This document shows positions 2,234 through 44,413 of a stretch of DNA of 64,000 bases, in pieces. Each line of letters starts with the position of its first letter. Within the stretch, counting starts at the first letter, position 1. This DNA comes from an uncultured Pseudomonadales bacterium (lineage in GTDB: Bacteria > Patescibacteriota > Microgenomatia > UBA1400 > PJMF01), in contig CAZEEV010000001.1 of assembly GCA_964511345.1 (NCBI GenBank), positions 150,621 through 214,620 of the forward strand. Reading direction: 5' to 3'. The position numbers and the translations under genes were made by a program. The notes under the pieces are model-generated. The model saw nothing but the letters and a program-made list of their open reading frames with translations. It was not told the origin of the DNA and did no database searches.

Positions 2234-3864
2234 AAAAATTTATAAAAATCATTTTTTTTGTTTTATTGACCTTAATTAACTGTCGTTACTTTTTTCATTT
2301 AGGTGTACCCATTACTCATGATGGTAATAATCATTTAGTACGTTTTGCTAATTACAAAATAGCAGTCAGAGAATTGCAAATTCCGCCACGCATTGCTCCA
2401 AATTTAGTTAATAGATATGGTTATCCAGTATTTAATTATAATTACCCATTAGCTAATATTTTATCTTTGCCATTTTCAATTGCTCACTTTAATTATGAAT
2501 TCACTTTTAAAATTATTACATCAGGCTTTGTCTTTTTAGCTTTAATTGGAGCTAATTTATTTTTAAGAGCTAAAAATTTTTCAAGAGGTTCTAGAATTTT
2601 TGCCTTGTTTGTTTTGGCTTTAAATCCATATATTTTTACGAGCATTATTTTCAGAGGCAATATTGGTGAAGTTATGGCTTGGGGTATTTTACCCTGGATT
2701 TTTTATTATTTAGAAAAAATTAAATTTAGTAAAAAATTTTTTAGTAAAGATTTCTTTTTATTAACCTTATTTATGTTAGCGCTATTTTTAGCGCACAATA
2801 TCATGGCTTTTTTTGCTAGCATTTTGTTGATTTTTTATTTAATTTTCAATTATTGGAATAATTGGCAATTTATCAAGAAGTTTGCTTTGAGCTTTATTTG
2901 GTCTTTTGTCTGTACTCTATGGTTCTGGTTACCAGCAATTATGGAAAAGGGTTTGGTTATTCTAGATAATGTGGATTTAACCCTTAATTACACGCAACAT
3001 TTTCTAAGCTTCAATCAGCTATTGCGTTTACCGATTGAATTTGGTTATTCATATTGGGGACAAGTTGATTCAATGTCACTTGGGCTTGGTGCCATACAAA
3101 TTTTACTTATTTTAGCTGCCATAGTTTACTTATTTAAGAAAAAACCTAGAGAAAATCTGGTTTTCTTCATTGCTTTGTTTGTTTTGTTAATCGCTCAACT
3201 TGGCTTTTCTAAACCACTTTATGATTTAATTCCCTTTGCCAACTTTATTCAATTTCCTTGGCGTTTGGCTCTTTTGATTTCTATAGTTTTGCTACCAGTT
3301 TCAGCCTTGGTTTTTACTTATCTGAAAAAACCAGTTAAATTTGTATTTGTTTTGGTGGTTTTTCTGCAATTAATACAGTTTCTACAAGTTAAACCAATCG
3401 ATTATCAGCATCAAACAAACATTGATTATGAAACTTATGGAGGTATTACATCTGTTAACCAAGAAAATATGCCACGGCTATTTACTTTTGAGTATTTTAC
3501 TGAGAGACCAGCGTCAGTTTTCATTTTAAATGGTAAAGGACAAATCAATATTAAAAACTTCAATGGTTCTTCTCGTTATTACTCATTAAGTCTAGAGGAA
3601 AAATCAACAATTGTTGAGTCGACAGCCTATTTCCCAGGTTGGGAAACAAAAGTTAATAATCAAAAAATAACTTATTTAGACAACGACATAATTAAAGGTA
3701 GAATTGCTTATGATTTGGAACCGGGAAACTATGAAGTAGTAACACGTTTCACTCAAAGGACTTGGCCCAGATTAGTTGGTAATAGCGTTAGCGCTTTGAG
3801 CTTACTTGCGCTTTTTTCTTTGGGTTTTTATCTTTGGCAAAAGGATAGAAAAAATAAAGGCTAA
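2230..3864 (+). CDS. polytopic membrane protein, GT-C-like glycosyltransferase of an uncharacterised family
   Basis: 544 aa with more than 10 TM segments. N-terminal 'HDGNNHLVRFANYK...RYGYPVFNYNYPLANI' region is paralogous to ORF 3788..5551. Start overlaps upstream stop by 4 nt (operon-like). Confidence 0.5.
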   Translation: MKKFIKIIFFVLLTLINCRYFFHLGVPITHDGNNHLVRFANYKIAVRELQIPPRIAPNLVNRYGYPVFNYNYPLANILSLPFSIAHFNYEFTFKIITSGFVFLALIGANLFLRAKNFSRGSRIFALFVLALNPYIFTSIIFRGNIGEVMAWGILPWIFYYLEKIKFSKKFFSKDFFLLTLFMLALFLAHNIMAFFASILLIFYLIFNYWNNWQFIKKFALSFIWSFVCTLWFWLPAIMEKGLVILDNVDLTLNYTQHFLSFNQLLRLPIEFGYSYWGQVDSMSLGLGAIQILLILAAIVYLFKKKPRENLVFFIALFVLLIAQLGFSKPLYDLIPFANFIQFPWRLALLISIVLLPVSALVFTYLKKPVKFVFVLVVFLQLIQFLQVKPIDYQHQTNIDYETYGGITSVNQENMPRLFTFEYFTERPASVFILNGKGQINIKNFNGSSRYYSLSLEEKSTIVESTAYFPGWETKVNNQKITYLDNDIIKGRIAYDLEPGNYEVVTRFTQRTWPRLVGNSVSALSLLALFSLGFYLWQKDRKNKG

Positions 3865-5551
3865 TAAATAAAGCCAAAGCAGAAATCGAGTCACCTAATT
3901 TGCGAGCTAGAGTATTTTCAGTAAAGTAAATTCCTACTTTATGCTGTCCAGCAGGAACACTAATTTGGATGTTGCCAAGCTCCTGATTAGTATCAATTTG
4001 CCATTTCTCACCATCTAGTTCAGCTTGCCAACCAGCAAAATTAGCAACCTTAAAATTCAAAGTTTCTGCCTTAAAGAAATCAGTAGAAACTAACTTTTCG
4101 AAACCGCGATCAACAAGCAAAGTTGCTTTACCATCCGATTGAATATCTGCTAACCAAAAAGTGCCTAATGCCTGATTTTTAGCTAAAAGCGTTTTTTCTT
4201 CAGCCATTTGAGTAGGAATGTAGTCTGGCAAAGTTTCGCTCATGTGATTCTGAATTCTAACGGCATCTGTATAGTAAAGAGCATTAGCATCATCCAAATA
4301 TCCCTTCGGTTTGAAATAAATAGCATTGCTTAATAAAAAGAGAAATAAAAACACCCCATATAAAAACTTTATTTTTTTATTCTTTATCAGATAAATTGAT
4401 AGCGCCACTAAGAGAGCAAGGAACAAAGAAGCCATAGACATGAAGCGCCAAGGAAATTGAATATACTGTAAAAGTTTAATACTATCCCAGACTAATTTAC
4501 TTTTTAAAATGCTCATAAAAAGACTTAGTAGAAGTAAACTAGAAAAAACTGAAATGTAAAAAAATAATTGATTTCTAATAAAAGTTTTACGATTTTTGAT
4601 CAAGTGATATAAAGCAGCCAAACCTAAAACTACCAAACTCAGTAATTGGCCTTTACCTAAGAAAAAAGAAAAGCCATCATTGGGGCCCCAAGCTGAACCA
4701 CCTTCGTATTGCCAGCGATCCAGGAAAAATTGTCTGATGTAAAGAAAGTGGTGAGAATAATGGAAATAGCCAGAGAAAATTTTATTAATAATAGTTAAAT
4801 CTTTTTCCATAAAAGCTGGAATCATATAAAACGCTGACAAGCCCATTGCTAAGAAAAACTGGCTAGCAATGATCCAAAGTAACTTGATCTTTTTCTGGTA
4901 TAGAAGATAAACAAAAGTAAAAAGAGCCGCCAACGGAATAAACATCATGGCAGTTAAATTATGTGATAAAACAATGGCAAATAAGGCTAGAGACAACAAT
5001 AATAAATATTTTTTATTTTGATTTTTAACATAGGCGACAATAGCAAAAAGTACTAATGGCAAAAAAGCCATGGCAAAAACTTCACTAAAAGCTCCTCTAA
5101 CAAAAAGATTCACTGCCCGATAAGGAGCTAAAGTATAAGCAGCAGCTAAAAGTAATCCACCAAAACGACCCAACATTTTTTTACCGAGCAGGTAAGCACC
5201 TATTAAAGTTACTAGATTAATTAATAAACCTAAAATTTTAAGACTAGCAATTACACTAAAACCCATTTTGAAAAAGATAGCTCCCACAAAATAAGGCAGT
5301 GGTGCATAAAAATTAAATAATGGCATACCGAAGCCATAGCCAAAATTCTCACTCCATCTAACTGGTAGTTGCCCCTCATCTAGAGCATGAGCCATTTCGG
5401 CAATTCTGGCAGCATGAGTAAAATCGTGTACATGAAAAAAACTAGGGTGAAAAAAAGAATAACTACTCAAAACAAAAACTAAAACTAAAGCAAAAGCAAC
5501 AAAATAGTTTTTTAAAAAATTAACTAAAAATTGCCAAATTTTATTTATCAT
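3788..5551 (-). CDS. polytopic membrane protein, GT-C-like glycosyltransferase paralogous to 2230..3864
   Basis: 587 aa. 'HDFTHAARIAEM...RWSENFGYGFGMPLFNFYAPLPYF' aligns with the N-terminal loop of the neighbouring plus-strand gene. 3' ends converge and overlap by 77 nt. Confidence 0.5.
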   Translation of the reverse strand: MINKIWQFLVNFLKNYFVAFALVLVFVLSSYSFFHPSFFHVHDFTHAARIAEMAHALDEGQLPVRWSENFGYGFGMPLFNFYAPLPYFVGAIFFKMGFSVIASLKILGLLINLVTLIGAYLLGKKMLGRFGGLLLAAAYTLAPYRAVNLFVRGAFSEVFAMAFLPLVLFAIVAYVKNQNKKYLLLLSLALFAIVLSHNLTAMMFIPLAALFTFVYLLYQKKIKLLWIIASQFFLAMGLSAFYMIPAFMEKDLTIINKIFSGYFHYSHHFLYIRQFFLDRWQYEGGSAWGPNDGFSFFLGKGQLLSLVVLGLAALYHLIKNRKTFIRNQLFFYISVFSSLLLLSLFMSILKSKLVWDSIKLLQYIQFPWRFMSMASLFLALLVALSIYLIKNKKIKFLYGVFLFLFLLSNAIYFKPKGYLDDANALYYTDAVRIQNHMSETLPDYIPTQMAEEKTLLAKNQALGTFWLADIQSDGKATLLVDRGFEKLVSTDFFKAETLNFKVANFAGWQAELDGEKWQIDTNQELGNIQISVPAGQHKVGIYFTENTLARKLGDSISALALFISLYFFYPFAKDKNPKKKAQVSSKR

Positions 5552-5553
5552 GA

Positions 5554-6285
5554 CTAATTAGATTTTAAAGAAGAAAACTTAATATTTAAATATGTAGTTA
5601 AAGCTTCATAACAAGCCTTGACGATTACCTTGAATTGAGCTCCAGTGGCTTGACCATAAAGGCGTGGATAATGATTAACGGCGACTTCTTTAAATTTAAT
5701 ACCTCTCTTTTTTAATCGATAAAGAATTTCTGCGCTAGTGAAAGCACTGCCTGATGTGAGATGTAGATTTTTTAAAGCCGAGGTCTTAAATAATTTGAAG
5801 GCGCAATCAATATCTCTAACGTGTAAACGAAAAAGAAGGTCAATATACAACTTAAAAATACTAGTATTAATATGTCTTCTTAAACCTTCCGATCTTTTTT
5901 TTCGATAACCGATAATAGCTTCGTATTTATTGGTTTCTTGCACAAAACGAACTAATTCAGATAAATCAAACTGTAGATCGCTGTCAGTCCAGAATATCCA
6001 TTCATATTGGCTATTTTTAATACCAGTTTTAAGCACTTCACCATAGCCTCTATTATATTTATGAGAAAAAATTTTAACTTGTTGATATTCGCTTCTCAAA
6101 TTTTTAGCAATTTTAAGACTGTCATCAGTACTGCCATCATTAATAATCAGCAATTCATATCTGGAAGCCAAAGTAGGAATAATTCTAACTGCCTGTTTAA
6201 TGAGAATTTCCAAATTAGCCTCTTCGTTATAGACAGGAAAAAAAACAGAGAGAGACTTAAGTTTTTTCATGACAGCTGTTATCAT
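5554..6285 (-). CDS. GT2 glycosyltransferase, DPM1/GtrB-like polyprenol-phosphate sugar synthase
   Basis: 'VFFPVYNEE...LLIINDGSTDDS' DxD-type GT-A N-terminus and 'NRGYG' motif. About 240 aa. Confidence 0.7.
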   Translation of the reverse strand: MITAVMKKLKSLSVFFPVYNEEANLEILIKQAVRIIPTLASRYELLIINDGSTDDSLKIAKNLRSEYQQVKIFSHKYNRGYGEVLKTGIKNSQYEWIFWTDSDLQFDLSELVRFVQETNKYEAIIGYRKKRSEGLRRHINTSIFKLYIDLLFRLHVRDIDCAFKLFKTSALKNLHLTSGSAFTSAEILYRLKKRGIKFKEVAVNHYPRLYGQATGAQFKVIVKACYEALTTYLNIKFSSLKSN

Positions 6286-21005: not shown

Positions 21006-22127
21006 TTATAAAGCAGAATTAATTTTTTTAAACAACTTCAAGGCCTCCGCCACAGCCTGATCCATATTTAGATAGCGATAGGTGCCCAAACGGCCAACGA
21101 AGTGAATACCAGAGGCTTCTAATTTCTTAGCCTCGCGTAGATATTTCCTCAACAACAAATGGTTGCGAGTTCTAGGTACTGGATAATAAGGCTCGCCATC
21201 CCAAGTGGGATATTCTTTAGAAATGATGGTTTTATTGATAGATTTTTTGGGTGGATAAAAATATTTGTATTCAATGATGCGAGTGAAAGGGTAGTCTAGA
21301 GAAGGGTAATTGACAGCAGAATTACTTTGGTAAAATTCCTGGTCATGTTCTTCAAAGTGAAAATCTAGAGAGCGATATTCTAAATGGCCGAAGGCGTAAT
21401 CAAAGTATTGATCGATAGCGCCGGTATAAAAAACCTGATCAAACTGACTAAGATCATTTTGCTCGCGAAAAACAAAGAAGTCGGTCTTAAGTCGTAACTC
21501 AATATTTGGATGCGATAACATTTTAGAAACTAGCCCTGCGAAGCCACTAACTGGCAAAGCCTGATAGCGATCAGTGAAATAGCGATTATCAGTATCAAAA
21601 CGCAAAGGATTGCGCTTAATTACCGCCGCATCGAGCTCACTAGGATCAAGCGCCCATTGTTTGAGACTGTAATTTTGAAAAATAGCCTCATAAAGTTCTT
21701 GGCCCACTTGAGATAAAACGTAATCTTCGCTATTAGCTACGTCTTTGAGTTTTTTAGTTTTCTTAGCCAAAAAAGCCCGCATTTCCTCTGCATTTTTGAG
21801 CTTCTGATGAAAAAATTGATTAACAGTATTTAAATTGATCGGTAAATTAAGCAATTGGTTTTTAACTTTGACTAGAACTTGATGTTCATAGTCCTGCCAT
21901 TTTGCAAAGCTTCTCAAATAATTCCAAACTTCTTGACTGTTAGTATGAAATAAATGAGCACCATAATTGGAGACCCGAATGCCAGTATCTAGATCCAAAT
22001 GATCATAACAATTACCCGCTAAATGAGTCCTTTTATCAATGACTAAGACAGAATCACCGAGATTCGCAAAACGCTCCGCCAAAGTCGCTCCAGACAAACC
22101 AGCACCGATGATTAGAATGCGAGACAT
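21006..22127 (-). CDS. glf: UDP-galactopyranose mutase
   Basis: 373 aa. 'ILIIGAGLSGATLAERF' FAD-binding motif and the full-length Glf pattern ('HLAGNCYD', C-terminal 'RLGTYRYLNMD'). Confidence 0.9.
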   Translation of the reverse strand: MSRILIIGAGLSGATLAERFANLGDSVLVIDKRTHLAGNCYDHLDLDTGIRVSNYGAHLFHTNSQEVWNYLRSFAKWQDYEHQVLVKVKNQLLNLPINLNTVNQFFHQKLKNAEEMRAFLAKKTKKLKDVANSEDYVLSQVGQELYEAIFQNYSLKQWALDPSELDAAVIKRNPLRFDTDNRYFTDRYQALPVSGFAGLVSKMLSHPNIELRLKTDFFVFREQNDLSQFDQVFYTGAIDQYFDYAFGHLEYRSLDFHFEEHDQEFYQSNSAVNYPSLDYPFTRIIEYKYFYPPKKSINKTIISKEYPTWDGEPYYPVPRTRNHLLLRKYLREAKKLEASGIHFVGRLGTYRYLNMDQAVAEALKLFKKINSAL

Positions 22128-22233: not shown

Positions 22234-22830
22234 ATGAGCGAAATAAAAAAGAAAAAAAGAGTAGGTGTGTATATTGATGGCTCAAATCTCTACTATGGTG
22301 GGCTTAAAGCAGGATGGCAATTAAATTATGCCAAAGTGAAGGTTTTTATTGAGCGAAAATATGAAATTGCGGTGATTAATTATTACAATTCAATTGGCTA
22401 TGAGAGAGGTAAGGATGGAAAATATATTAAGGATCAAAAAGGAGAATATATTTTTAATCAAGCTATACTAAGATTTGAAAACTATTTAAGAAAATTAAAA
22501 ATAAAAGTAATCTCTAAACCCTTAAAATTCATCAAGAGCAATGAATCAATCGCCACTAATAAATTAGATGGTGATATTATGATTGAGGCGTTATTGGATC
22601 ACAGAAAGTGGGATGAATTAATATTAATGAGTGGTGATTCTGATTTTGAGAGATTAGTAAAAGAAATTGCTTCACTAAAAAAGACGGTTCATATTTTTAG
22701 TTTTGGATCAAGAATTTCGCATGAGTTAAAAATGCTCTCTGTAGAATCTAATTTTGTTACTTTTACCAAGTTAGATAGTTTAAAACTAGTTTTAAAGCAT
22801 GAAATAAATTTGACAAAATACTCTAAATAA
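22234..22830 (+). CDS. NYN-domain (LabA/DUF88-like PIN-fold) protein
   Basis: 'RVGVYIDGSNLYYGG' and 'LMSGDSDFERLV' are characteristic of the NYN domain. Paralogous to 37247..37816. Confidence 0.75.
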   Translation: MSEIKKKKRVGVYIDGSNLYYGGLKAGWQLNYAKVKVFIERKYEIAVINYYNSIGYERGKDGKYIKDQKGEYIFNQAILRFENYLRKLKIKVISKPLKFIKSNESIATNKLDGDIMIEALLDHRKWDELILMSGDSDFERLVKEIASLKKTVHIFSFGSRISHELKMLSVESNFVTFTKLDSLKLVLKHEINLTKYSK

Positions 22831-22920: not shown

Positions 22921-23739
22921 ATGTTATACAATGAAGCAATGTTAGCCATTTTTAAAGAGATTCGTGATGTTATTAAGTGGCGTGAGTTGCTTGGACAAAT
23001 GGTTAGCCGTGAAGTTAAAGCACGTTATAAACAATCGATCTTAGGCTATTTCTGGATTATCTTAAATCCTCTGGCTCAAATGTTAGTGATGAGTTTTGCC
23101 TTTTCGATTATTATGCGCATCCCGACCAATGCGACGGATAACATTCCTTACTCGGTATTTCTTTTTGTAGCTTTGTTACCTTGGAATCTCTTTTCCAACT
23201 CACTAAGTTCTGCTTGTGGATCTTTAGTTGGTTCGGCTTCATTGATCACTAAAGTCTATTTCCCACGCACTATTTTGGTTTTATCGACTGTAATGGCTAA
23301 AATTATTGATTTTGCCTTGGCTCTGACCGTGCTAGTCGTTTATATGATTGCTTATCAGCTACCAATTAACCTCAATATTTTATGGGTAATTCCGATATTT
23401 TTGATTCAACAAATTTTTACCATGGGCTTGTCGTTATTTTTTGCAGCGGCTAATTTGCTTTATCGCGACATTCAATATTTATTATCTTTACTTTTACTTC
23501 TATGGATGTACCTAACACCAGTGATTTATCCAGCTGATTTGGTACCAGAACGCTATCAGTTTGTTTTTCAACTTAACCCAATGTCCGTCATTGTTAATGC
23601 CTATCGCCAAACCATTTTAGGTGGGGGCATGCCGAACCTAATCAGCATTAGTATTGCTTTAGTAGTTTCAATCTTAGTTTTATTAGTTGGTTTTTCTTAC
23701 TTTAAATCTAGAGAAAAAATCTTTTCGGATAATATTTAA
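22921..23739 (+). CDS. ABC-2 type polysaccharide/teichoic-acid export permease (Wzm/TagG-like)
   Basis: 272 aa, 6 TM helices. 'VKARYKQSILGYFWIILNPL' ABC-2 signature. Confidence 0.8.
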   Translation: MLYNEAMLAIFKEIRDVIKWRELLGQMVSREVKARYKQSILGYFWIILNPLAQMLVMSFAFSIIMRIPTNATDNIPYSVFLFVALLPWNLFSNSLSSACGSLVGSASLITKVYFPRTILVLSTVMAKIIDFALALTVLVVYMIAYQLPINLNILWVIPIFLIQQIFTMGLSLFFAAANLLYRDIQYLLSLLLLLWMYLTPVIYPADLVPERYQFVFQLNPMSVIVNAYRQTILGGGMPNLISISIALVVSILVLLVGFSYFKSREKIFSDNI

Positions 23740-23740
23740 T

Positions 23741-24478
23741 ATGTCAGATACTGTTATTAAATTCCAAAATGTCACTAAGAAATTTGCTTTTCAAAGTCAA
23801 AAGACTTTCAAAGAATTTTTGCCAGCTTTAATTAGAGGTGAAGAAACTAGTAAAGGTTTTACTGCGCTTGATAATATTAGTTTTGAAATTGAAAAAGGTG
23901 AGAGCATTGGCATTATTGGGCCAAATGGTTCTGGAAAATCTACCATTCTTAAATTAATCGCTGGAGTGATGTCGCCAACGATGGGTAAAGTTGAGGTTGA
24001 AGGGCAAATTTCACCTTTAATTGAACTAGGCGCTGGTATGCACCCAGAATTGACTGGTATGGAGAATATTTACCTAAATGGTGCCATTCTGGGTCTTAAA
24101 AAGAAACAAATTGATGCTAATCTGCAAAGTATCATCGATTTCTCAGAAATAGAGGAGTTTATTAATCAACCAGTTAAACACTATTCATCTGGGATGTATA
24201 TGCGCTTGGCTTTTGCGATTGCTGTCCACGTTAATCCAGAAATTTTAATCGTCGACGAAATATTGGCAGTGGGCGACGATGCTTTCCAAAAAAAATGTTT
24301 TAGAAAAATGGAAGAATTCAAACAAAATGGAGTAACCATTATCTTTGTGTCGCATTCATTAGGACAAGTGAGAGAATTCTGTAATAAAGCAATTTATATT
24401 AATCACAGTAAGCTTATTGCCCAGGGCAATGTAGATGAGGTGTGCGATAAATATCAAGCCGATGCAGTAAATAAATAA
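23741..24478 (+). CDS. ABC transporter ATP-binding protein (Wzt/TagH-like)
   Basis: ATG at 23741. Walker A 'GPNGSGKST', signature 'YSSGMYMRLAFA', Walker B 'ILIVDE'. Confidence 0.85.
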   Translation: MSDTVIKFQNVTKKFAFQSQKTFKEFLPALIRGEETSKGFTALDNISFEIEKGESIGIIGPNGSGKSTILKLIAGVMSPTMGKVEVEGQISPLIELGAGMHPELTGMENIYLNGAILGLKKKQIDANLQSIIDFSEIEEFINQPVKHYSSGMYMRLAFAIAVHVNPEILIVDEILAVGDDAFQKKCFRKMEEFKQNGVTIIFVSHSLGQVREFCNKAIYINHSKLIAQGNVDEVCDKYQADAVNK

Positions 24479-24480
24479 CT

Positions 24481-25635
24481 TTATTCTTTAGAGAAAATTT
24501 CGTCCCAAGTAAATTTGGTTAATTGATTTCTTAAGTCTTTTTGGCTAACTTCTACAAATTCCAGATTATTAACTAATTTAATAATTTGCTGTACCCAGGC
24601 TTGCGAATCATCTGATTTAGAAATAATAGATAATAATTTCGAGTTAATTTCTATTCCCTCAGTTCCGACCTCCGTAGTAACAACTGGTTTACCATAAGAC
24701 AGACTTTCTAAAACTTTCAAACGAGTTCCGGAACCAGCAAAAATTGGGGCTACTAATATGTCAATTTGTTTATAGAAACTTTGCAAATCAGCGACATAAT
24801 CAAGAAACTTAACGCCTGGTAGATTTGGGTAAAAATCCTGATTGCCTTTGCCCAGAACAATCACTTCACATTCAGCCTGAACTTGTTTTAAGGCTGGTAA
24901 GATTTTTAAAAGCAAATAATCAAGAGCTTGGCGATTGGGAGTGTGATCAACTGAACCAACAAAACCAATCGCTATTTTTTTCTCAGTTCGAGGGGCTAAA
25001 AAATTAATTTTTTCTATACCATTGGGACTAACTTGAACTTTATCTAGAGCAAAAAGTTTTTTAACAAAGAAAGCATCTTTTTGAGACATAACCACGATCT
25101 TTGAAAAAAATCTCAATAAACTTCTTTCATATAAATAAACTTGCAGACAGCTCAATAGTCTAATAAGGATTTTAAGTGGATTTTTAGAAGCAAAGGCTCT
25201 TCTGTAAAAAGAAATTGTAGAAATATCTAAAGCTACAAATTTACTAAATTGATTTTTTAATAAATACTTAGCTAAATAAAGAATTTGCGTTGATTCAATT
25301 CTGATTTGAGCAAAACTAGTTTTAGCCTGTAGATCTTTAAAATCATCAATTAATTCTTGAGAAAAATAGTTTGAAAAATGATAGGGAAGAGCAAGTTTCA
25401 AACTGAGCAGAATAGACTTTTTTGTCAAAGAAAAGGACTTAAAAAAAACCGTGTATTGATTCAGAAAAGATTTTTCCTCCGCTGTTAATAGTTGGTCACT
25501 AGAAAGAAAAAAGTAAAAGTGAATTTCATACTTTTTACTTAAATGGATTAAAGTTTGTTTGATTCTCGTCGCTCCACCGCTAGTTTGCGGAAAAGGGGAA
25601 ATGCCAGAGATTAATAATAACTTTGGTTTTGACAT
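24481..25635 (-). CDS. GT4 (GT-B fold) glycosyltransferase
   Basis: C-terminal 'GSGTRLKVLESLSYGKPVVTT' E-x7-E-like motif. Confidence 0.7.
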   Translation of the reverse strand: MSKPKLLLISGISPFPQTSGGATRIKQTLIHLSKKYEIHFYFFLSSDQLLTAEEKSFLNQYTVFFKSFSLTKKSILLSLKLALPYHFSNYFSQELIDDFKDLQAKTSFAQIRIESTQILYLAKYLLKNQFSKFVALDISTISFYRRAFASKNPLKILIRLLSCLQVYLYERSLLRFFSKIVVMSQKDAFFVKKLFALDKVQVSPNGIEKINFLAPRTEKKIAIGFVGSVDHTPNRQALDYLLLKILPALKQVQAECEVIVLGKGNQDFYPNLPGVKFLDYVADLQSFYKQIDILVAPIFAGSGTRLKVLESLSYGKPVVTTEVGTEGIEINSKLLSIISKSDDSQAWVQQIIKLVNNLEFVEVSQKDLRNQLTKFTWDEIFSKE

Positions 25636-26393
25636 TAATATCTTTCTATCAGTCCCAAGTTAATAAAAATTTTGCCCAGTAAACTTTGTCTAAAGTTAAA
25701 TTGTTTTTGTAGCTGCTCAAGTTCTTGAGTAGAGAAAAGCTCTCGCAAAACTTGCTCTCGTTCCTGATTTAGTAAGGCTAAATTGGTAGAACTAATGCCG
25801 CTTTGATCAAAGTAAACAATGGAAGTGGCTGAATGCTGCCAAGTACATTTTTGACTTAAGAAAAGCTTCAAATTAAAAGCTAAGTCAGCGACAATTTTTA
25901 AATCTTCACGATAAAGACCAAATTTTTGAAAAAGTTCTCGTTTAAAAAACATTGATTGATGACAAAGAGAATAGCGATAAAAAAAGAGCTTTGTTAACTG
26001 ATCTGGTTGAAAATATAGTTCAATTTGCTTAGTGTCCAAATTAAGTCGCTTGGCATCGGCATAAACGATGTCAGTATCAGGTTTAGTTATAAAAACACGA
26101 TTTAAAGCCTCTGAATCAAGAAAATAATCACCGCTATGTAAAAATAAAATGTATTCACCTTTAGCCTGTCTAATTCCTTGATTTAAGGCCTGATAAATAC
26201 CATTATCCTTTTGACTCTGCCAATAAGAAATTTTAGATTGATTATCTCTAATTAAATCCACACTCCCATCAGTAGAACCACCATCAATAACAATATATTC
26301 AAAATCAGTAAAAGTCTGAGAAAAAATACTAGCAAAGGTTTTTTGAAGACCTCGGAAATTGTTTAAATTAACGGTTATGATGCTTAGCTTCAT
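25635..26393 (-). CDS. GT2 family glycosyltransferase
   Basis: 'LSIITVNLNN...YIVIDGGSTDGS'. Confidence 0.75.
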   Translation of the reverse strand: MKLSIITVNLNNFRGLQKTFASIFSQTFTDFEYIVIDGGSTDGSVDLIRDNQSKISYWQSQKDNGIYQALNQGIRQAKGEYILFLHSGDYFLDSEALNRVFITKPDTDIVYADAKRLNLDTKQIELYFQPDQLTKLFFYRYSLCHQSMFFKRELFQKFGLYREDLKIVADLAFNLKLFLSQKCTWQHSATSIVYFDQSGISSTNLALLNQEREQVLRELFSTQELEQLQKQFNFRQSLLGKIFINLGLIERY

Positions 26394-26488
26394 AAATTAA
26401 CATTCAGCAATTGAGTTAATCAAGATATTGTGCTTAGATCATTATACTCATATTTCTAGAAAAAAAATTAAATAAACTCTAAATAACA

Positions 26489-26836
26489 ATGATTAAATAC
26501 ATCTTATTGATTTCATCAATGACTTTAGCAGTATTGGGACAAATCTTTTTTAAGAAAGGAATCACTAGCTCGGCATTGTCTCCAAATATACTCTCCATAT
26601 TACAAACAATCTTTACACCATATATATTTTTTGGTTTTTTTATTTATGGTTTATCATCAATAATCTGGTTGTTTGTATTACAAAGATTTCCTTTGTCAGT
26701 AGCTTATCCGAGTTTAGCTTTAACCTATATAATAGTAGCCGTATTAAGTACATTCATTTTTAAAGAAAGTTTGAATTTTGAAAAGATAATTGGAATATTA
26801 CTTATATTTATAGGAGTTTATTTTATCAATAAATGA
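26489..26836 (+). CDS. small 4-TM SMR/ArnE-ArnF-like (or GtrA-like) putative polyprenyl-phosphate-sugar flippase subunit
   Basis: 115 aa, four hydrophobic helices. 'LAVLGQIFFKKG' resembles EamA/ArnE. 4-nt coupling to the downstream GT2. Confidence 0.5.
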   Translation: MIKYILLISSMTLAVLGQIFFKKGITSSALSPNILSILQTIFTPYIFFGFFIYGLSSIIWLFVLQRFPLSVAYPSLALTYIIVAVLSTFIFKESLNFEKIIGILLIFIGVYFINK

Positions 26837-27552
26837 AAAACATAAATTACAACACATTATCAATCGTTGTACCTTGCTATAACGAAGTAAAAACTATTCA
26901 AACAATTATATCAAAGATATTAAAAGCGGATAGCTTAGGTCTAAAAAAAGAAATCATCATAGTAGATGATGGGAGTACTGACCAAACTAGAACAATTCTA
27001 AAAAAATACCAATCAAGGAAAAATTTTAAAATAATTTTTCAAAAACAAAATCAAGGCAAAGGCGCGGCTTTAAAAACAGGAATTACTAATTCAACTGGTG
27101 ACATTGTCTTAGTTCAAGATGCTGATTTGGAATATGATCCAGAAGAATATCCTATTTTGTTAGAACCAATTATTAATAATAAGGCAGACGTAGTTTATGG
27201 ATCTAGATTTTTAGGAGGTAGACCCCATCGAGTTTTATACTTTTGGCATTCCCTGATGAATCATTGGCTAACAACCTTTTCTAACATGCTTTCTGGTATT
27301 AATCTGACTGACATGGAAACTTGTTATAAAGTCATAAGAGGCGATTTAATTAGAAAATTAGCCTCAAAATTAGAATCTCAAAAATTTGGTTTTGAACCAG
27401 AAATCACAGCTAAGCTAGCAAAAATAAAAGACGTCAGATTTTATGAGGTCGGAATCTCTTATTACGGAAGAACATATAAGGAAGGTAAGCACATTAATTG
27501 GTTAGACGGCATTCGCGCTATTTGGGAAATTATCAAATATAATCTTTTTTAA
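26833..27552 (+). CDS. GT2 polyprenol-phosphate glycosyltransferase (ArnC/GtrB/DPM1-like)
   Basis: 'LSIVVPCYNE...IIVDDGSTDQT', 'NQGKGAAL' and 'VQDADLEYDP' are characteristic of DPM1-type synthases. Confidence 0.75.
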   Translation: MKNINYNTLSIVVPCYNEVKTIQTIISKILKADSLGLKKEIIIVDDGSTDQTRTILKKYQSRKNFKIIFQKQNQGKGAALKTGITNSTGDIVLVQDADLEYDPEEYPILLEPIINNKADVVYGSRFLGGRPHRVLYFWHSLMNHWLTTFSNMLSGINLTDMETCYKVIRGDLIRKLASKLESQKFGFEPEITAKLAKIKDVRFYEVGISYYGRTYKEGKHINWLDGIRAIWEIIKYNLF

Positions 27553-27560
27553 TAAACATT

Positions 27561-29378
27561 GTGCAATTTAAACATAAAATAAGCTTAGAGAAATTTCTAG
27601 ATTTATCCGTCAAAAGTTGGATTATCTATTTATTTTTTGTATTTTTGACTACTGAAATATTATCTTTATTTAATCTAATTGGCAGAACATCAATAATAAT
27701 TATTTATTCTATTATTGCTCTATTGATTTTCATTTTTTTACTTAAAAATAAAATAACAATTGATTTCAATTCCTTAAAAAAGATCAAGAAAAGCGAAAAA
27801 CTTATTCTTTTATTGGTTACTTTAACCATATTATTGCCAATTCTTTTTACAGCTCTCTACTATCCACCTAATAATTGGGATTCTATGACTTATCACATGG
27901 CGAGAATCATGCATTGGATTGATAATAAGAATGTCAATTTTTACTTTACTCATAATGATAGGCAATTATTTAATGGCCCACTGGCGGAATATGTGATTTT
28001 ACACTGGTATCTATTGGCAAATTCGGACATATTTTCTAATTTAGTGCAATACTTTTCTCTTATCATTACAACTTGCTCTTCATATTTGATTACCAAATTT
28101 TTATCTAAAGATAAAAAAACAAATTTGCTATCAATAGTTTTGGTGTTAACAACTCCCATGGCAATTATGCAGGCTAGTAGTACACAAAATGATCTAGTCG
28201 TGTCCTCAATCTTATTGGCAACGATTTATTTAGGATTTAAAAAAGCTTGGTGGCTTTTTGGTCTATCAATTGGTTTAGGAATGTTAACCAAAAACACCTA
28301 TGCCATTTTCGCTTTACCTTTTTGTTTTTATTTTGGTGTTAAGTGGCTTAAAGAATATAAACAGAAAGCTTTATTACTATTTTTATGGTTTTTATTATGC
28401 GTAATCTTTATTAACCTGATGCATTGGCATAGAAACTATCAAGAATTTGGTTCACCAGTTGGACCAAAGCACATGTCTGAAAAAATTTTAAATAACGATC
28501 ATGAAACAAAAATTATTACATCTAATGTTATTAGAAATATCGGTTTGCAACTTGGTTTGCCATATGGCAGATATAACTCATTTATTGATGAAGTTATTTA
28601 TGAATCGCATAAAAAATTAGGTTTAAGCATCAATGACCAAAAAAATTCTTGGTATTCCATGACTTATCAAACTAAATTTTCAATTCACGAAGATCTTGCG
28701 GGTAACTTTTTATTAACAATACTTTTAATATTTTCTTTTTTATTTATTTTCAGAGAAAAACAAAAAATGTATTACGGATTTGCCATAATTGGTGGATGGA
28801 TAACTTTTAACTATTTATTAAAATGGCAACCATGGGGAAGTAGGCTTTTACTCCCATGGCTCCTGGTTTCTATTCCACTTATTACGAGTGTTTTAAATAA
28901 ACTTGTAAAAAATAATAAAATAATATTCTTGCTTATTTCAATTTTGTTATTTTGTTCTTGGCCATTTGTAGCTGGAAGTAGCAAATATTTTGGCAGCCTA
29001 CCTACTTCAATTGAATCCAATAGACAAATTTTACCATTACCAGAATTTGGAAAAGAAAGTAGGTTTGAAAGATATTTTTATAGTAGAAAAGTTTTATTAC
29101 CAAATTTAGAATCTATTGAAAAAATTATTAAAAACAACAAAATCGAAGAAGTTGGACTAAATTTAGGGTATGATAGTACAGAATATCTCTGGTGGGTAAT
29201 CTTAAAAAAAATAGATAAAAATATAAATATAAAAATTGTGGAAGATAATTTTTTTGATAAAGCTGATGAACCAGCAATTATTTTTTATGATAAGGAACAG
29301 GCTAAAAAGGACAACAATATCAAATCGCATGATATAAGTCCAAGCGTCAAAATATATTTTAATAACGAAAACTTATAA
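27561..29378 (+). CDS. polytopic GT-C-like membrane glycosyltransferase (GtrC/ArnT functional analogue)
   Basis: 605 aa, about 12 TM helices. 'PPNNWDSMTYHMARIMHW' periplasmic loop after TM1. Confidence 0.5.
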   Translation: MQFKHKISLEKFLDLSVKSWIIYLFFVFLTTEILSLFNLIGRTSIIIIYSIIALLIFIFLLKNKITIDFNSLKKIKKSEKLILLLVTLTILLPILFTALYYPPNNWDSMTYHMARIMHWIDNKNVNFYFTHNDRQLFNGPLAEYVILHWYLLANSDIFSNLVQYFSLIITTCSSYLITKFLSKDKKTNLLSIVLVLTTPMAIMQASSTQNDLVVSSILLATIYLGFKKAWWLFGLSIGLGMLTKNTYAIFALPFCFYFGVKWLKEYKQKALLLFLWFLLCVIFINLMHWHRNYQEFGSPVGPKHMSEKILNNDHETKIITSNVIRNIGLQLGLPYGRYNSFIDEVIYESHKKLGLSINDQKNSWYSMTYQTKFSIHEDLAGNFLLTILLIFSFLFIFREKQKMYYGFAIIGGWITFNYLLKWQPWGSRLLLPWLLVSIPLITSVLNKLVKNNKIIFLLISILLFCSWPFVAGSSKYFGSLPTSIESNRQILPLPEFGKESRFERYFYSRKVLLPNLESIEKIIKNNKIEEVGLNLGYDSTEYLWWVILKKIDKNINIKIVEDNFFDKADEPAIIFYDKEQAKKDNNIKSHDISPSVKIYFNNENL

Positions 29379-30342
29379 TTTTAAATGCCTTACTGATCAT
29401 TTGAGAAATTTTCCAAGATTTAGAGTTTATAACTTCATCTAATTTTTGTTTATAAACAAAATCTTCTCTTTTGCAATTGTTAACATTTTTATTTCTAAGT
29501 TCTTCAATTTTCAGCATATATTCATCGTAATTGAAATACTGTTTTAGAGGTTTTAATTTGATTGCTAATTGAATTGGAATATCTAATATAGATCCAGAAT
29601 AAATATCTCCGCAAATCTTCTCAGACTGTTTCAGTGTAATTGGAAAAAGCTTCTTATAATTTTCGTAGTAAATATTAGAGACCTCTTTAAAAACTAATCC
29701 ACTCTTTGTTGCATATTCTGAAAACCCACCAAGTCTGTATGTTGCAAAAGAATTTTTGACGTAGACGCTGTCATAGTTCTTTAAACAAAGTCTTACTGTC
29801 ATATCATAGTCGCCAACACATTTATATTTTGTATTAAAACAATTTTCTTTAACAATTATTCTTTTGTTAAATAGCATTGTTTGGTGGTTAGGCATAATTG
29901 TAAAAAAAATATTTTTGATGTTTGGTTTTATCTCATCTTTCCTTTTGGTATTTTCGTTTAAATTAATTACGGGAGCATATGAAAAAGCAGCCTTACTTTT
30001 TTCTAAACATTTAACAGATTCATTTATTCCGTTTTTATCATGATAAAAATCATCAGAATTCAAAAAAGCTAAATATTTTCCTTTTGACAGTAAAATTCCT
30101 TTATTCATGGCGTCATAAACACCAGTGTCTGGTTCGGATACAAATTTAATCCAACCTTTTTTTTCGTATGTTTCTAATATTTCTCTAGTTCCATCTTGTG
30201 AATTGCCATCAATAACCAAATGTTCTATGTTTTTATAAGCTTGGTCATGAACTGATTGAAGACATTGTCTAAAAGTATTAATCCTATTATTTTTAACTAA
30301 ATTGAATGTTATAGTGATAATAGATACTAAAGGTTTTTGCAT
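29359..30342 (-). CDS. GT2 family glycosyltransferase
   Basis: 'VSIITITFN...LVIDGNSQDGT' and 'NSDDFY'. Confidence 0.7.
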   Translation of the reverse strand: MQKPLVSIITITFNLVKNNRINTFRQCLQSVHDQAYKNIEHLVIDGNSQDGTREILETYEKKGWIKFVSEPDTGVYDAMNKGILLSKGKYLAFLNSDDFYHDKNGINESVKCLEKSKAAFSYAPVINLNENTKRKDEIKPNIKNIFFTIMPNHQTMLFNKRIIVKENCFNTKYKCVGDYDMTVRLCLKNYDSVYVKNSFATYRLGGFSEYATKSGLVFKEVSNIYYENYKKLFPITLKQSEKICGDIYSGSILDIPIQLAIKLKPLKQYFNYDEYMLKIEELRNKNVNNCKREDFVYKQKLDEVINSKSWKISQMISKAFKIISFRY

Positions 30343-30343
30343 T

Positions 30344-43359: not shown

Positions 43360-43837
43360 CCCTATTATTGTTGGTATTGATCCAGGCTATGATCGCATTG
43401 GTGTGGCCATTGGCCAAAAAATTGATTCTAAATGGCAAGTTTTGACCTACACTTGTATTCAAACCGATAAAAAAGCTCAGCTTTTCGAGCGTTACCAACA
43501 AATTACTGAAGAACTAGAGACATTAATCATCAAACATCAGGTCACTGAAGCCGGCATCGAATCACTATTTTGGTTTAAAAATCAAAGTACCGCTCTCGAT
43601 GTCAGCGAAGCAAGAGGCGTCATTATTGCCACACTCTTGCGTCAAAAGATCAAAATCGCTGAATATACACCATTGCAGATCAAACAGAGTCTAACTGGCT
43701 ATGGACGAGCTGATAAAAAAGCGGTAGAAAAGATGGTGAGAATGGAACTTTCATTATCCGGTAAAATTATGGATGATACGATTGATGCATTAGCCGCGAT
43801 GATTTGTCATGAATGCAGCAGAAAGTTAAAAGTATGA
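43349..43837 (+). CDS. ruvC: crossover junction endodeoxyribonuclease RuvC
   Basis: 'IIVGIDPGYDRIGVAIG' RNase-H-fold resolvase N-terminus. 162 aa. Confidence 0.9.
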   Translation: MKNNPIIVGIDPGYDRIGVAIGQKIDSKWQVLTYTCIQTDKKAQLFERYQQITEELETLIIKHQVTEAGIESLFWFKNQSTALDVSEARGVIIATLLRQKIKIAEYTPLQIKQSLTGYGRADKKAVEKMVRMELSLSGKIMDDTIDALAAMICHECSRKLKV

Positions 43838-44409: not shown

Positions 44410-44413
44410 ATCA

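What the first reader, a model, noticed from the sequence alone, without database searches (positions are those of the whole stretch)
26489..29378. Three-gene flippase/GT2/GT-C module, the logic of GtrABC and ArnC-ArnE/F-ArnT
Three same-strand, tightly coupled genes are a 115-aa 4-TM SMR/GtrA-like protein, a DPM1/ArnC/GtrB-like GT2 and a 605-aa GT-C enzyme. The coupling is a 4-nt overlap and then an 8-nt gap. This is the canonical arrangement for making a polyprenyl-phosphate monosaccharide in the cytoplasm, flipping it, and transferring it onto an extracytoplasmic acceptor. It implies a side-chain modification system for the glycan made by the surrounding locus. A second DPM1-like GT2 (5554..6285) sits next to another GT-C pair.
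Basis: partly seen in the sequence, partly recalled or inferred. Interest (0 to 1): 0.55.

Follow-up and report, generated by a model that had tools for sequence, protein, structure and literature searches.

The report
Lipid-linked sugar decoration operon in CPR bacterium
Three tightly coupled genes in an uncultivated Patescibacteria genome encode the usual kit for attaching a sugar to a surface molecule outside the cell membrane: a lipid-sugar synthase, a small EmrE-like membrane protein that probably flips the lipid-sugar, and an ArnT-like transferase. This is an ordinary new example of a well-known system.

Summary
Three plus-strand ORFs lie at 26489-26836 (115 aa), 26833-27552 (239 aa) and 27561-29378 (605 aa), with an ATGA overlap and then an 8-nt gap.

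- **Small protein:** SMR fold. It is EamA/ArnE-ArnF-like, not GtrA and not a Qac/EmrE drug pump. It has no membrane-embedded carboxylate, keeps the Tyr switch, and has a K/R bias of -1.
- **GT2:** It has no TM segment. Its best solved relatives are Pyrococcus Dol-P-Man synthase, ArnC and GtrB.

Co-conservation is partial but informative.

- The small gene and this GT2 are neighbours in 20 of 30 metagenome loci, 14 of them with the same 4-nt overlap.
- The downstream polytopic protein varies between loci, much as gtrAB pairs with different gtrC genes.
- The GT2/GT-C pair recurs across many phyla without the small gene.
- The closest relative carries only a deleted remnant of the small gene.
- Relatives often carry a methyltransferase that this window lacks.

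The host is a Pacebacteria-like CPR bacterium, and the operon sits in a glycan locus with a Wzm/Wzt-type ABC transporter. The sugar and the acceptor are unknown.

Verdict: a new member of a known kind, of modest interest.

The parts
26394..26488 (.). 95-nt AT-rich intergenic region between the divergent GT2 gene (25635-26393, -) and the operon; presumed promoter region
   Evidence: Position only. The sigma-70-type scan found no more sites than in shuffled sequence, and no terminator-like site was found in 26200-29700. Inferred, not shown.
26489..26836 (+). 115-aa 4-TM protein with an SMR fold, of the EamA/ArnE-ArnF type; proposed dual-topology homodimeric flippase for the polyprenyl-phosphate sugar
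   Evidence: Pfam: EamA PF00892 scores 35.2 bits (cut-off 28.2); PF00893 SMR scores 19.4, below its 23.7 cut-off; no GtrA hit. NCBIfam: best matches are ArnF (52.1 bits) and ArnE (43.7), against 27.7 or less for Qac/Ebr models, and all are below the equivalog cut-offs. The AF2 model has pLDDT 95.2 with four long helices plus a short one. The Foldseek top hits are EmrE (TM 0.68-0.71) and Gdx-Clo. In the family profile, invariant Y73 aligns with EmrE Y60, and L76 sits at the W63 position. The only acidic residues are E93 and E98 in loop 3 (sequence). K/R bias is -1. It is followed by the orthologous GT2 in 20 of 30 metagenome loci.
26833..27552 (+). 239-aa TM-less GT2 of the polyprenyl-phosphate glycosyltransferase class (DPMS/ArnC/GtrB-like); proposed synthase of the lipid-linked monosaccharide donor
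   Evidence: PF00535 scores 130.8 bits. The best PDB match is Pyrococcus Dol-P-Man synthase 5mlz (E 5e-20), aligned over residues 9-236 against 25-249, with DADLEYDPEE matching DADLQHPPE. ArnC and GtrB follow. NCBIfam matches are AglJ, a Dol-P hexose transferase, PpgS and ArnC, all below cut-off. No TM segment is predicted. The orthologue in L022 is fused to a GtrA_DPMS_TM domain. An orthologue lies next to the GT-C in 16-17 distant genomes.
27561..29378 (+). 605-aa polytopic GT-C glycosyltransferase with a small C-terminal alpha/beta domain; proposed extracytoplasmic transferase that uses the lipid-linked sugar
22921..24478 (+). Context only: Wzm-like ABC-2 permease (22921-23739) and Wzt-like ATPase (23687-24478). 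They are candidate exporters of the polymer that the GT-C may decorate.
   Evidence: PF01061 and PF00005. The same pair flanks the module in L003 and L005. The link to the module is inferred.
3788..6285 (-). Context only: a second lipid-sugar synthase / polytopic protein pair. It consists of an ArnC/GtrB-like GT2 (5554-6285) and, 2 nt downstream, a 9-TM PTPS_related protein (3788-5551). No flippase gene accompanies it.
   Evidence: It may share the 115-aa protein, but that is inference only.

Best explanation
This is a three-gene operon for extracytoplasmic glycosylation, of the kind called a three-component or multi-component transmembrane glycosylation system.

Step 1 (inferred from homology): the TM-less GT2 binds the inner face of the membrane, probably through its C-terminal amphipathic helix. 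It transfers one sugar from a nucleotide sugar to polyprenyl (undecaprenyl) phosphate.

Step 2 (inferred): the 115-aa SMR-fold protein inserts in both orientations and forms an antiparallel homodimer. The dimer lets the polyprenyl-P-sugar headgroup cross to the outer leaflet down its gradient, without proton coupling, as proposed for ArnE/ArnF.

Step 3 (fold shown, chemistry inferred): the ArnT-like GT-C uses an invariant Asp in an extracytoplasmic loop to move the sugar onto an acceptor outside the membrane. The most likely acceptor is the polysaccharide assembled by the surrounding glycosyltransferases and exported by the adjacent Wzm/Wzt ABC transporter.

The small gene plus GT2 behave as a conserved donor-supply cassette that combines with different polytopic transferases. 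The sugar and the acceptor are not known.
For: - **Family and fold assignments:**
- **GT2 class:** The three best solved relatives (Dol-P-Man synthase, ArnC, GtrB) are all polyprenyl-phosphate sugar synthases, ahead of ordinary GT2 enzymes such as chondroitin synthase. An orthologue is fused to a GtrA/DPMS transmembrane domain in L022.
- **Small protein, lipid-transport SMR features** (as listed in PMC9574504): it sits in a glycolipid operon, lacks the central carboxylate, and keeps the Tyr switch. The K/R bias is -1 for the window protein and -2 to +1 for all but one of 32 family members (one outlier, P0151, at -6). This fits a singleton dual-topology SMR.
- **Small gene and GT2 linkage:** The orthologous GT2 (scores 180-412 bits) follows the small gene in 20 of 30 metagenome loci with enough downstream sequence, 14 of them with the same 4-nt overlap.
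- **Full set in other lineages:** small gene, GT2, methyltransferase and GT-C occur together in L005 (GT-C 63% identical), and in L092 and L131 (40%).
- **GT2 and GT-C linkage:** An orthologous GT2 lies within 8 kb of the GT-C homologue in 17 of 54 species-representative loci with full flanks, spread over many phyla. GT2 scores fall into two clear groups, 178 bits or more versus 80 or less.
- **Flanking context:** Wzm/Wzt and the flanking GT4/GT2 genes are syntenic in L003 and L005.
- **Precedent:** A 4-TM EmrE/ArnE-like flippase works with a GT-C on an ABC-transporter-dependent O antigen in Citrobacter youngae (PMC11127046).
Against: - No biochemical data exist for any of the three proteins or their close homologues.
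- Flipping has not been shown directly even for most characterised small flippases (PMC11127046).
- The small gene is absent next to the GT-C in 80 of 80 distant genomes and in L007, L009 and L010. In the closest relative, L003, it is reduced to a 29-codon remnant. So it is not essential to the GT2/GT-C pair, or another flippase can replace it.
- About one third of loci carrying the small gene lack the orthologous GT2 immediately downstream.
- All NCBIfam matches are far below the equivalog cut-offs.
- The acceptor is inferred from gene neighbourhood only. The host is a CPR bacterium, and its envelope chemistry is unknown.
Confidence: 0.65

Rival explanations
1. The small protein is not a flippase. 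It is a membrane anchor or activator for the TM-less GT2, like DPM2/DPM3 for human DPM1, GacJ for GacI, or the DUF2304 protein Rv3632 for PpgS. Flipping would then be done by some other protein or be unassisted.
For: - The GT2 has no TM segment.
- The small gene and GT2 form the tightest conserved pair and are translationally coupled.
- In L022 the orthologous GT2 carries a fused 4-TM GtrA_DPMS_TM domain. In Pyrococcus DPMS that domain is part of the enzyme.
- In L090, L007 and L010 a neighbouring GT2 is paired with a DUF2304 protein in the equivalent position.
- GT2 partnerships with a separate small membrane protein are documented (PMC8035078).
Against: - An SMR fold with a balanced K/R distribution is the architecture of an antiparallel transporter dimer, not of an anchor (PMC9574504).
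- The closest named relatives are the ArnE/ArnF flippase subunits.
- Orthologous TM-less GT2s exist without any small partner in L003, L007 and L009, so an anchor is not obligatory.
Confidence: 0.2
2. The module works as described, but the acceptor is not the locus polysaccharide. The GT-C would instead glycosylate proteins, as actinobacterial Ppm1/Pmt do in O-mannosylation (for example S-layer or pilus proteins), or a membrane lipid, as ArnT does with lipid A.
For: - The only Pfam families matched are PMT_2 and GT87.
- ArnT (lipid acceptor), Pmt4 and the oligosaccharyltransferases (protein acceptors) are the best structural matches.
- Only about one third of GT-C homologues in distant genomes have glycan genes shared with this window nearby.
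- One relative, L006, has the GT-C with no glycan GT genes around it.
Against: - The operon is embedded between glycan GT4/GT2 genes and a Wzm/Wzt exporter, and that arrangement is syntenic in L003 and L005.
- No MIR domain or PMT (PF02366) match was found.
- The 252-aa and 327-aa flanking GT2 genes accompany the GT-C in 11-13 other loci.
Confidence: 0.25
3. The GT-C is a chain-building enzyme rather than a decorating one. Together with the other polytopic GT-C-like proteins in the window, it would assemble much of a glycan outside the membrane from lipid-P-monosaccharide donors, as in mycobacterial arabinan and mannan synthesis.
For: - The 64-kb window encodes five PMT_2 proteins, a PTPS_related protein and three unclassified 7-11-TM proteins, plus two lipid-sugar-synthase-type GT2s.
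- AftA, AftB, AftD, Emb and PimE are among the fold matches.
Against: - The best fold matches are single-transfer enzymes (ArnT, ALG12, Pmt4).
- The locus also has many cytoplasmic GT2/GT4 enzymes and an ABC exporter, which fits intracellular polymerisation.
- Nothing distinguishes processive from single-addition GT-Cs at this level of analysis.
Confidence: 0.1
4. The 115-aa protein is an ordinary SMR drug, quaternary-cation or guanidinium exporter that merely happens to lie next to glycosylation genes.
For: - Weak matches to QacH/QacC/EbrA models (about 27 bits) and to EmrE (profile E 0.007).
- EmrE is the best structural match.
Against: - No acidic residue lies in any TM segment, so the proton- and cation-binding Glu14 equivalent is missing. 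The W63 position is Leu.
- ArnF and ArnE score about 16-25 bits higher than any Qac model.
- PF00893 is below its threshold.
- The gene is linked and translationally coupled to a GT2 in 20 of 30 loci.
Confidence: 0.03

Closest known systems
ArnC / ArnE-ArnF / ArnT (undecaprenyl-phosphate-L-Ara4N pathway of Enterobacteria)
   Different: There is one small gene rather than a heterodimeric pair. Its balanced K/R bias suggests a dual-topology homodimer. The GT2 lacks ArnC's C-terminal TM helices. The operon holds no ArnA/B/D-type sugar-nucleotide tailoring genes. All scores are far below the equivalog cut-offs. The host is a CPR bacterium, which is expected to lack lipid A (own knowledge).
GtrA / GtrB / GtrC O-antigen glucosylation (Shigella and Salmonella phages) and Klebsiella GmlABC (own knowledge)
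   Same: The logic is the same. So is the modular pattern found here: a conserved flippase-plus-synthase pair combined with variable GT-C proteins. Like GmlABC, it sits beside an ABC-transporter-dependent glycan locus that contains glf.
   Different: The small protein is not in the GtrA family (no PF04138 hit; SMR fold). The GT2 aligns with GtrB only over its N-terminal half and lacks GtrB's two TM helices.
Citrobacter youngae O1/O2 pentofuranose three-component system (ORF15 synthase, ORF14 flippase, ORF12 GT-C; PMC11127046)
   Same: A 4-TM EmrE/ArnE-like protein is the proposed flippase. It works with a GT-C that modifies an ABC-transporter-dependent polysaccharide after polymerisation.
   Different: The donor synthase there is a PRPP-dependent polyprenyl phosphoribose synthase plus a phosphatase, not a GT2. 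Its GT-C founds family GT136 and is unrelated in sequence.
Gram-positive multi-component transmembrane glycosylation systems (CsbB/GtcA/YfhO, GtlA/GtcA/GtlB, GacI-GacJ/GacK/GacL; PMC8035078)
   Same: A monoderm-type setting. A C55-P-sugar synthase and a GT-C decorate ABC-exported wall polymers. One flippase can serve several GT-A/GT-C pairs, which is relevant to the second GT2/polytopic pair at 3788-6285. A soluble GT2 with a separate small membrane partner is also known.
   Different: The flippases there are of GtrA or Wzx type, and the GT-Cs are YfhO-like. No sequence relationship was found.
Pyrococcus furiosus Dol-P-Man synthase (PDB 5mlz) and actinobacterial Ppm1/Pmt (own knowledge)
   Same: It is the best solved homologue of the GT2 over the whole catalytic domain, and the DAD metal-binding motif is kept. 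An orthologue in L022 has the same GT2 + GtrA_DPMS_TM fusion architecture.
   Different: The window GT2 stops after the catalytic domain and first interface helix, and has no TM domain. Sugar specificity is unknown.

Membership tests
GtrA family (PF04138) flippase | Match to the GtrA/DPMS_TM profile | tested here: not met
   No PF04138 hit even at E <= 1. The fold search finds EmrE and Gdx, not the DPMS TM domain.
SMR superfamily, lipid-transport (ArnE/ArnF) subtype | About 110-aa protein with 4 TM helices and an SMR fold | tested here: met
   115 aa. The AF2 model has pLDDT 95. Best PDB matches are EmrE (TM 0.68-0.71) and Gdx-Clo, probability 1.0. By Pfam thresholds it belongs to EamA (35.2 vs 28.2), not PF00893 (19.4 vs 23.7).
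SMR superfamily, lipid-transport (ArnE/ArnF) subtype | Central TM1 glutamate replaced by an uncharged residue, with the tyrosine switch conserved (PMC9574504) | tested here: met
   No Asp or Glu in any TM segment; the conserved TM1 motif is G17-Q18. Invariant Y73 aligns with EmrE Y60. The TM1 alignment that places A14 at E14 is weak.
SMR superfamily, lipid-transport (ArnE/ArnF) subtype | Encoded in a glycolipid or glycan biosynthetic operon | tested here: met
   4-nt overlap with the GT2. GT2 is downstream in 20 of 30 loci. Other members head operons with sugar-nucleotide enzymes, a GT2 and a 9-TM protein.
ArnE / ArnF equivalogs | Score above the NCBIfam equivalog cut-off, and two adjacent genes with opposite K/R bias | tested here: not met
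   ArnF scores 52.1 against a cut-off of 99; ArnE scores 43.7 against 92. It is a single gene with K/R bias -1.
Qac/EmrE-type multidrug SMR | Membrane-embedded Glu14, Trp63, and a score above the family cut-offs | tested here: not met
   Scores are 27.7 bits or less against cut-offs of 160-226. There is no TM carboxylate, and Leu sits at the W63 position.
Polyprenyl-phosphate glycosyltransferase class of GT2 (DPM1/DPMS, ArnC, GtrB, PpgS, AglJ) | GT-A GT2 domain with a DxD (DAD) motif; closest relatives are lipid-phosphate sugar synthases | tested here: met
   PF00535 scores 130.8 bits. D96-A-D98 aligns with the DAD motif of 5mlz. The best PDB hits are DPMS, ArnC and GtrB.
Polyprenyl-phosphate glycosyltransferase class of GT2 (DPM1/DPMS, ArnC, GtrB, PpgS, AglJ) | Equivalog-level identity with a characterised enzyme, which would give the sugar specificity | tested here: not met
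   AglJ scores 93.8 against a cut-off of 325, ArnC 65.2 against 529, and PpgS 49 against 370. The sugar remains unknown.
Polyprenyl-phosphate glycosyltransferase class of GT2 (DPM1/DPMS, ArnC, GtrB, PpgS, AglJ) | Transfers a sugar to polyprenyl phosphate | not testable with these tools
   Needs an enzyme assay.
GT-C superfamily | GT-C fold: a polytopic N-terminal core with juxtamembrane helices | tested here: met
GT-C superfamily | Conserved acidic residue in the first large extracytoplasmic loop | tested here: met
   D107 (WDS) is invariant in 38 homologues at 28-77% identity. Its location outside the membrane is inferred from the model, not measured.
ArnT (GT83) / PMT (GT39) family membership | Sequence match to the family profile | tested here: inconclusive
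   Only the broad PMT_2 (28.6 vs 26.1) and GT87 (27.4 vs 25) profiles are passed, and only marginally. There is no PF02366 hit, and the family profile finds no PDB chain by sequence.
Three-component / multi-component transmembrane glycosylation system | Lipid-sugar synthase, flippase and GT-C encoded together and co-conserved | tested here: met
   One operon. The set recurs in L005, L092 and L131. The small-gene/GT2 pair occurs in 20 of 30 loci, and the GT2/GT-C pair in 17 of 54. The small gene is optional.
Three-component / multi-component transmembrane glycosylation system | Post-export addition of a sugar to a defined glycoconjugate | not testable with these tools
   The acceptor and product are unknown, and the organism is uncultivated.

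The most novel reading that the evidence does not exclude
This reduced-genome CPR (Pacebacteria-like) bacterium may assemble much of its surface glycan outside the membrane from lipid-phosphate monosaccharide donors. A single dual-topology SMR-type flippase would supply several of the roughly nine polytopic GT-C-like proteins encoded in this 64-kb field. The small-gene/GT2 cassette would be a mobile donor-supply unit that recombines with unrelated transferase families. One of these is a roughly 560-aa family with no Pfam or PDB match, which is seen only in related metagenome loci, not in this window.
Probability: 0.15. Interest if true: 0.55.

Novelty: new member of a known kind. Interest (0 to 1): 0.3.

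Why it matters
This adds a computationally well-supported example of extracytoplasmic, lipid-carrier-dependent glycosylation in the Candidate Phyla Radiation, whose envelope chemistry is almost unknown.

It also shows that an ArnE/F-like singleton SMR protein, probably a dual-topology homodimer, is a recurrent partner of a specific TM-less lipid-sugar synthase in uncultivated bacteria. That pair combines with interchangeable polytopic transferases and, often, a methyltransferase.

This is useful for annotation, because these small proteins are routinely labelled as DMT or multidrug transporters. It also helps in choosing tractable candidates for testing SMR-type lipid flipping. It does not change the current picture of how such systems work.

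Tried and rejected
- **GtrA assignment:** rejected (no PF04138 hit, SMR fold).
- **Arn or Gtr equivalog membership:** rejected because the scores are too low.
- **Promoter and terminator scans, 26200-29700:** no signal above shuffled sequence.
- **tRNA and Rfam scans of the window:** nothing found.
- **GT-C family profile against PDB sequences:** no hit, so fold comparison was needed.
- **Source genome:** Cluster look-ups gave no names. The organism was therefore inferred from named ArgRS relatives.
- **Large proteins downstream of the small gene in L089, L090 and L091:** single-sequence hhalign against the GT-C profile gave no similarity.
- **Profile of ten ~560-aa proteins (A3) against the GT-C profile:** only a borderline match (probability 49%, E 2e-4). 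It aligns W35-x-D37 with W106-D107. A3 has no Pfam or PDB hit. Whether this family is GT-C is therefore open.
- **Literature:** searches for CPR-specific work on such systems found nothing relevant.
- **Methyltransferase:** the one seen in relatives was searched for in the window and is absent.


Full report
**Observation**

- 26489-26836: 115 aa, ATG start.
- 26833-27552: 239 aa, ATG start.
- 27561-29378: 605 aa, GTG start.

Reading the junctions directly shows ...AAT AAA TGA with the next ATG inside it, a 4-nt ATGA overlap. The second junction is TAA-TAAACATT-GTG, an 8-nt gap. The operon is bounded upstream by a divergent GT2 gene (25635-26393, -). Downstream, a convergent GT2 gene (29359-30342, -) overlaps the last 20 nt of the GT-C. 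An independent gene caller made identical calls on two other metagenome contigs that carry the same proteins. Promoter and terminator scans add nothing beyond chance.

**Host and setting**

The window is a field of glycan genes.
- Wzm/Wzt-type ABC transporter: 22921-24478.
- UDP-galactopyranose mutase (glf): 21006-22127 (-).
- Many GT2 and GT4 enzymes, and several epimerase/dehydratases.
- A Wzx-like protein (35199-36470) and a Wzy_C protein (48002-49603).
- Five PMT_2-type polytopic proteins.
- ArgRS (12483-14213) and RuvCAB (43349-45424) are embedded among these genes.

The ArgRS's named relatives are Candidatus Pacebacteria (76%, 57% and 56% identity) and 'Patescibacteria group'. The host is therefore a CPR bacterium. 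From general knowledge, such bacteria are expected to have no outer membrane or lipid A. The operon and its two downstream neighbours form a low-GC block of 26-31%, against a gene mean of 34.6%.

**The small protein**

- **Family matches:** Pfam places it in EamA (35.2 bits, cut-off 28.2). PF00893 (SMR) is below threshold, and there is no GtrA match. The best NCBIfam models are ArnF (52.1 bits) and ArnE (43.7), well ahead of every Qac/Ebr/EmrE model (27.7 or less). None reaches its equivalog cut-off.
- **Fold:** An AF2 model built from 30 homologues is very confident (pLDDT 95.2). Its best solved matches are EmrE (TM 0.68-0.71) and Gdx-Clo, followed by SLC35/DMT transporters.
- **Key residues:** A family profile aligns TM2-TM4 with EmrE (E 0.007). 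This puts the invariant Y73 on the EmrE 'tyrosine switch' Y60, and Leu on the substrate-binding W63. The protein has only two acidic residues, E93 and E98. Both lie in loop 3, and none lies in a TM helix.
- **Fit to the lipid-transport subtype:** The SMR review describes this subtype (ArnE/ArnF) as follows: the central Glu is lost, the Tyr switch is kept, and the gene sits in a glycolipid operon (PMC9574504). All three features are present here.
- **Topology:** It is a singleton with a K/R bias of -1. All but one of 32 family members fall between -2 and +1; the outlier (P0151) is at -6. The same review gives this as the signature of dual-topology homodimers.

The 'GtrA-like' alternative is wrong.

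**The GT2**

- **Family:** It matches PF00535 at 130.8 bits and has no predicted TM segment.
- **Solved relatives:** The best is Pyrococcus Dol-P-Man synthase (5mlz, E 5e-20), aligned across the whole catalytic domain and first interface helix. D96-A-D98 sits on the DAD metal-binding motif. ArnC and GtrB come next.
- **NCBIfam matches:** These include AglJ, a haloarchaeal Dol-P hexose transferase, PpgS and ArnC. All are below cut-off, so sugar specificity cannot be read off.
- **Fusions in orthologues:** In L022 the orthologue is fused to a GtrA_DPMS_TM domain. In L020, L053 and L077 it is fused to a SAM methyltransferase.

**The 605-aa protein**

It only just passes PMT_2 and GT87. A 38-sequence profile finds no PDB chain by sequence. 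The AF2 model is confident (pLDDT 90.6, pTM 0.93), and fold comparison is clear.
- **Foldseek:** it agrees, with ArnT on top.
- **Conserved residues:** D107 in the loop motif PPNNWDSMTYH is invariant across homologues down to 28% identity. This is the expected position of a GT-C catalytic carboxylate.

**Co-conservation**

*Starting from the GT-C:*
- L005 (63% identity): small gene, GT2, methyltransferase, GT-C.
- L092 and L131 (40%): the same four genes.
- L003 (77%), L007 (47%): GT2-methyltransferase-GT-C without the small gene; L009 and L010 (about 40%): GT2 directly followed by the GT-C, with neither the small gene nor the methyltransferase.
- L006 (50%): the GT-C alone.
- In L003 the intergenic DNA still encodes MKY fused to the last 29 residues of the small protein, at 86% identity. 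This is an internal deletion, so the gene was ancestral there and was lost.
- Across 80 species-representative genomes from many phyla, GT2 scores fall into two clear groups (178 bits or more, versus 80 or less). An orthologue lies within 8 kb of the GT-C in 17 of 54 loci with full flanks, and within 600 nt in 16 loci. None of the 80 has the small gene.

*Starting from the small protein (61 metagenome loci, not de-replicated):*
- 20 of 30 close family members with at least 800 nt of downstream sequence are followed by the orthologous GT2. In 14 of these the overlap is the same 4 nt.
- The next large gene is usually a ~560-aa protein with 7-9 predicted TM segments and no Pfam or PDB hit. It matches the GT-C profile only marginally (hhalign probability 49%, E 2e-4), aligning its invariant W-x-D with W106-D107.
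- More distant members head operons containing sugar-nucleotide enzymes, a non-orthologous GT2 and a ~450-aa 9-TM protein.

*Overall pattern:* the small gene and GT2 form a conserved donor-supply cassette joined to variable polytopic partners. This resembles gtrAB with serotype-specific gtrC. The GT2/GT-C pair can also exist without the small gene. The triad is modular rather than fixed.

**Mechanism**

The best-supported reading has three steps.
1. The GT2 charges polyprenyl phosphate with one sugar at the inner face of the membrane.
2. The SMR-type homodimer equilibrates the lipid-sugar across the membrane.
3. The GT-C transfers the sugar to an acceptor outside the membrane.

The folds and families are shown. 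Each chemical step is inferred. The acceptor is most simply the polymer built by the neighbouring GTs and exported by Wzm/Wzt, because that neighbourhood is syntenic in L003 and L005. A protein or lipid acceptor cannot be excluded.

A real rival for the small protein is a role as anchor or activator of the TM-less GT2, by analogy with DPM2/3, GacJ or DUF2304 partners (PMC8035078). The evidence for that rival is the tight coupling to the GT2 and the GtrA_DPMS_TM fusion in L022. The evidence against it is the balanced-charge SMR architecture and the ArnE/F affinity.

**Comparison with known systems and novelty**

Three-component (multi-component) extracytoplasmic glycosylation is well established. 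Examples are Arn, Gtr, the Gram-positive CsbB/GtcA/YfhO and Gac systems, and the mycobacterial pathways (PMC8035078, PMC11127046). A 4-TM EmrE/ArnE-like flippase paired with a GT-C on an ABC-transporter-dependent O antigen has already been described in Citrobacter youngae.

What differs here is the CPR host, a singleton SMR gene rather than an ArnE/F pair, a TM-less GT2, and the absence of the methyltransferase that most relatives carry. None of these changes the kind of system. This is a new member of a known kind, and its interest is modest.

Noticed in passing
window 33596-34398 (-): A family 8 glycosyltransferase gene is split into two overlapping ORFs. The 101-aa piece (34093-34398) matches PF01501 positions 2-78 (sub-threshold: E 4.5e-4, 20.3 bits against a 24.3 cut-off). 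The 182-aa piece (33596-34144) matches positions 79-251. This is a frameshifted pseudogene or an assembly error. The N-terminal piece has only 17% GC.
   Followed up: partly
window 26489-32542 and 33596-34398: A low-GC block (26-31%, against a window gene mean of 34.6%, sd 4.4) covers the operon and the next two GT genes. In the closest relative, L003, the 732-aa GT is replaced by a 385-aa GT4 and the operon composition differs. This looks like a variable, possibly exchanged, cassette within the glycan locus.
   Followed up: partly
L003:4619-4715 (closest relative, GCA_002306345.1): A remnant of the small flippase-like gene. MKY is joined in frame to the last 29 residues (86% identical) directly upstream of the GT2 start. 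This is an internal deletion of about 80 codons, while the GT2, methyltransferase and GT-C remain intact.
   Followed up: yes
L003, L005, L007, L092, L095, L104, L115, L122, L131; fusions in L020:965-2377, L053:4497-5888, L077:9875-11281: A Methyltransf_23-type SAM methyltransferase is a frequent fourth gene between the GT2 and the polytopic protein. In three distant lineages, including a Methanocellales MAG, it is fused to the orthologous GT2. This suggests methylation of the lipid-linked sugar or its precursor. The window has no copy.
   Followed up: partly
L022:6756-7889: In a Bdellovibrionales MAG the orthologous GT2 carries a C-terminal GtrA_DPMS_TM domain (PF04138, 44 bits) and is followed at once by the GT-C homologue. 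A GtrA-type 4-TM domain thus occupies the role that a separate SMR-type protein has in the window.
   Followed up: partly
L090:7063-8763 and nine homologues (alignment A3): A ~560-aa family with 7-9 predicted TM segments usually follows the small-gene/GT2 cassette. It has no Pfam or PDB sequence match and only a borderline profile match to the GT-C family, through a shared W-x-D loop motif. It is probably an undescribed GT-C-like family, but no structure was predicted.
   Followed up: partly
window 3788-6285 (-), 617-3864 (+): A second ArnC/GtrB-like GT2 (5554-6285) lies 2 nt upstream of a 9-TM PTPS_related protein. A PMT_2 protein and an unclassified 11-TM protein are adjacent. No small flippase-type gene accompanies them, so the 115-aa protein may serve more than one module.
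   Followed up: partly
L007:275-2689, L010:2667-5247, L090:3478-6004: In several relatives a separate module lies directly upstream of the operon homologue. It consists of a polytopic protein (DUF2079 or unclassified), a 223-aa GT2 and a DUF2304 small membrane protein, which is the GacI/GacJ- or PpgS/Rv3632-like arrangement. Two lipid-sugar modules therefore sit in tandem.
   Followed up: no
window 12483-14213, 43349-45424, 22234-22830, 37247-37816: Housekeeping genes (ArgRS, RuvC-RuvA-RuvB) and two NYN-domain genes are interspersed within the glycan gene field. A 10-TM full-length EamA transporter is at 46055-47008.
   Followed up: no
L011 (CAZENT010000004.1, labelled uncultured Pseudomonadales): This contig shares many window genes: several GT2/GT4 genes, two PMT_2 proteins, Wzm/Wzt and a 43%-identical truncated GT-C. 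Its taxonomic label may be a binning error, or the locus may have been transferred.
   Followed up: no
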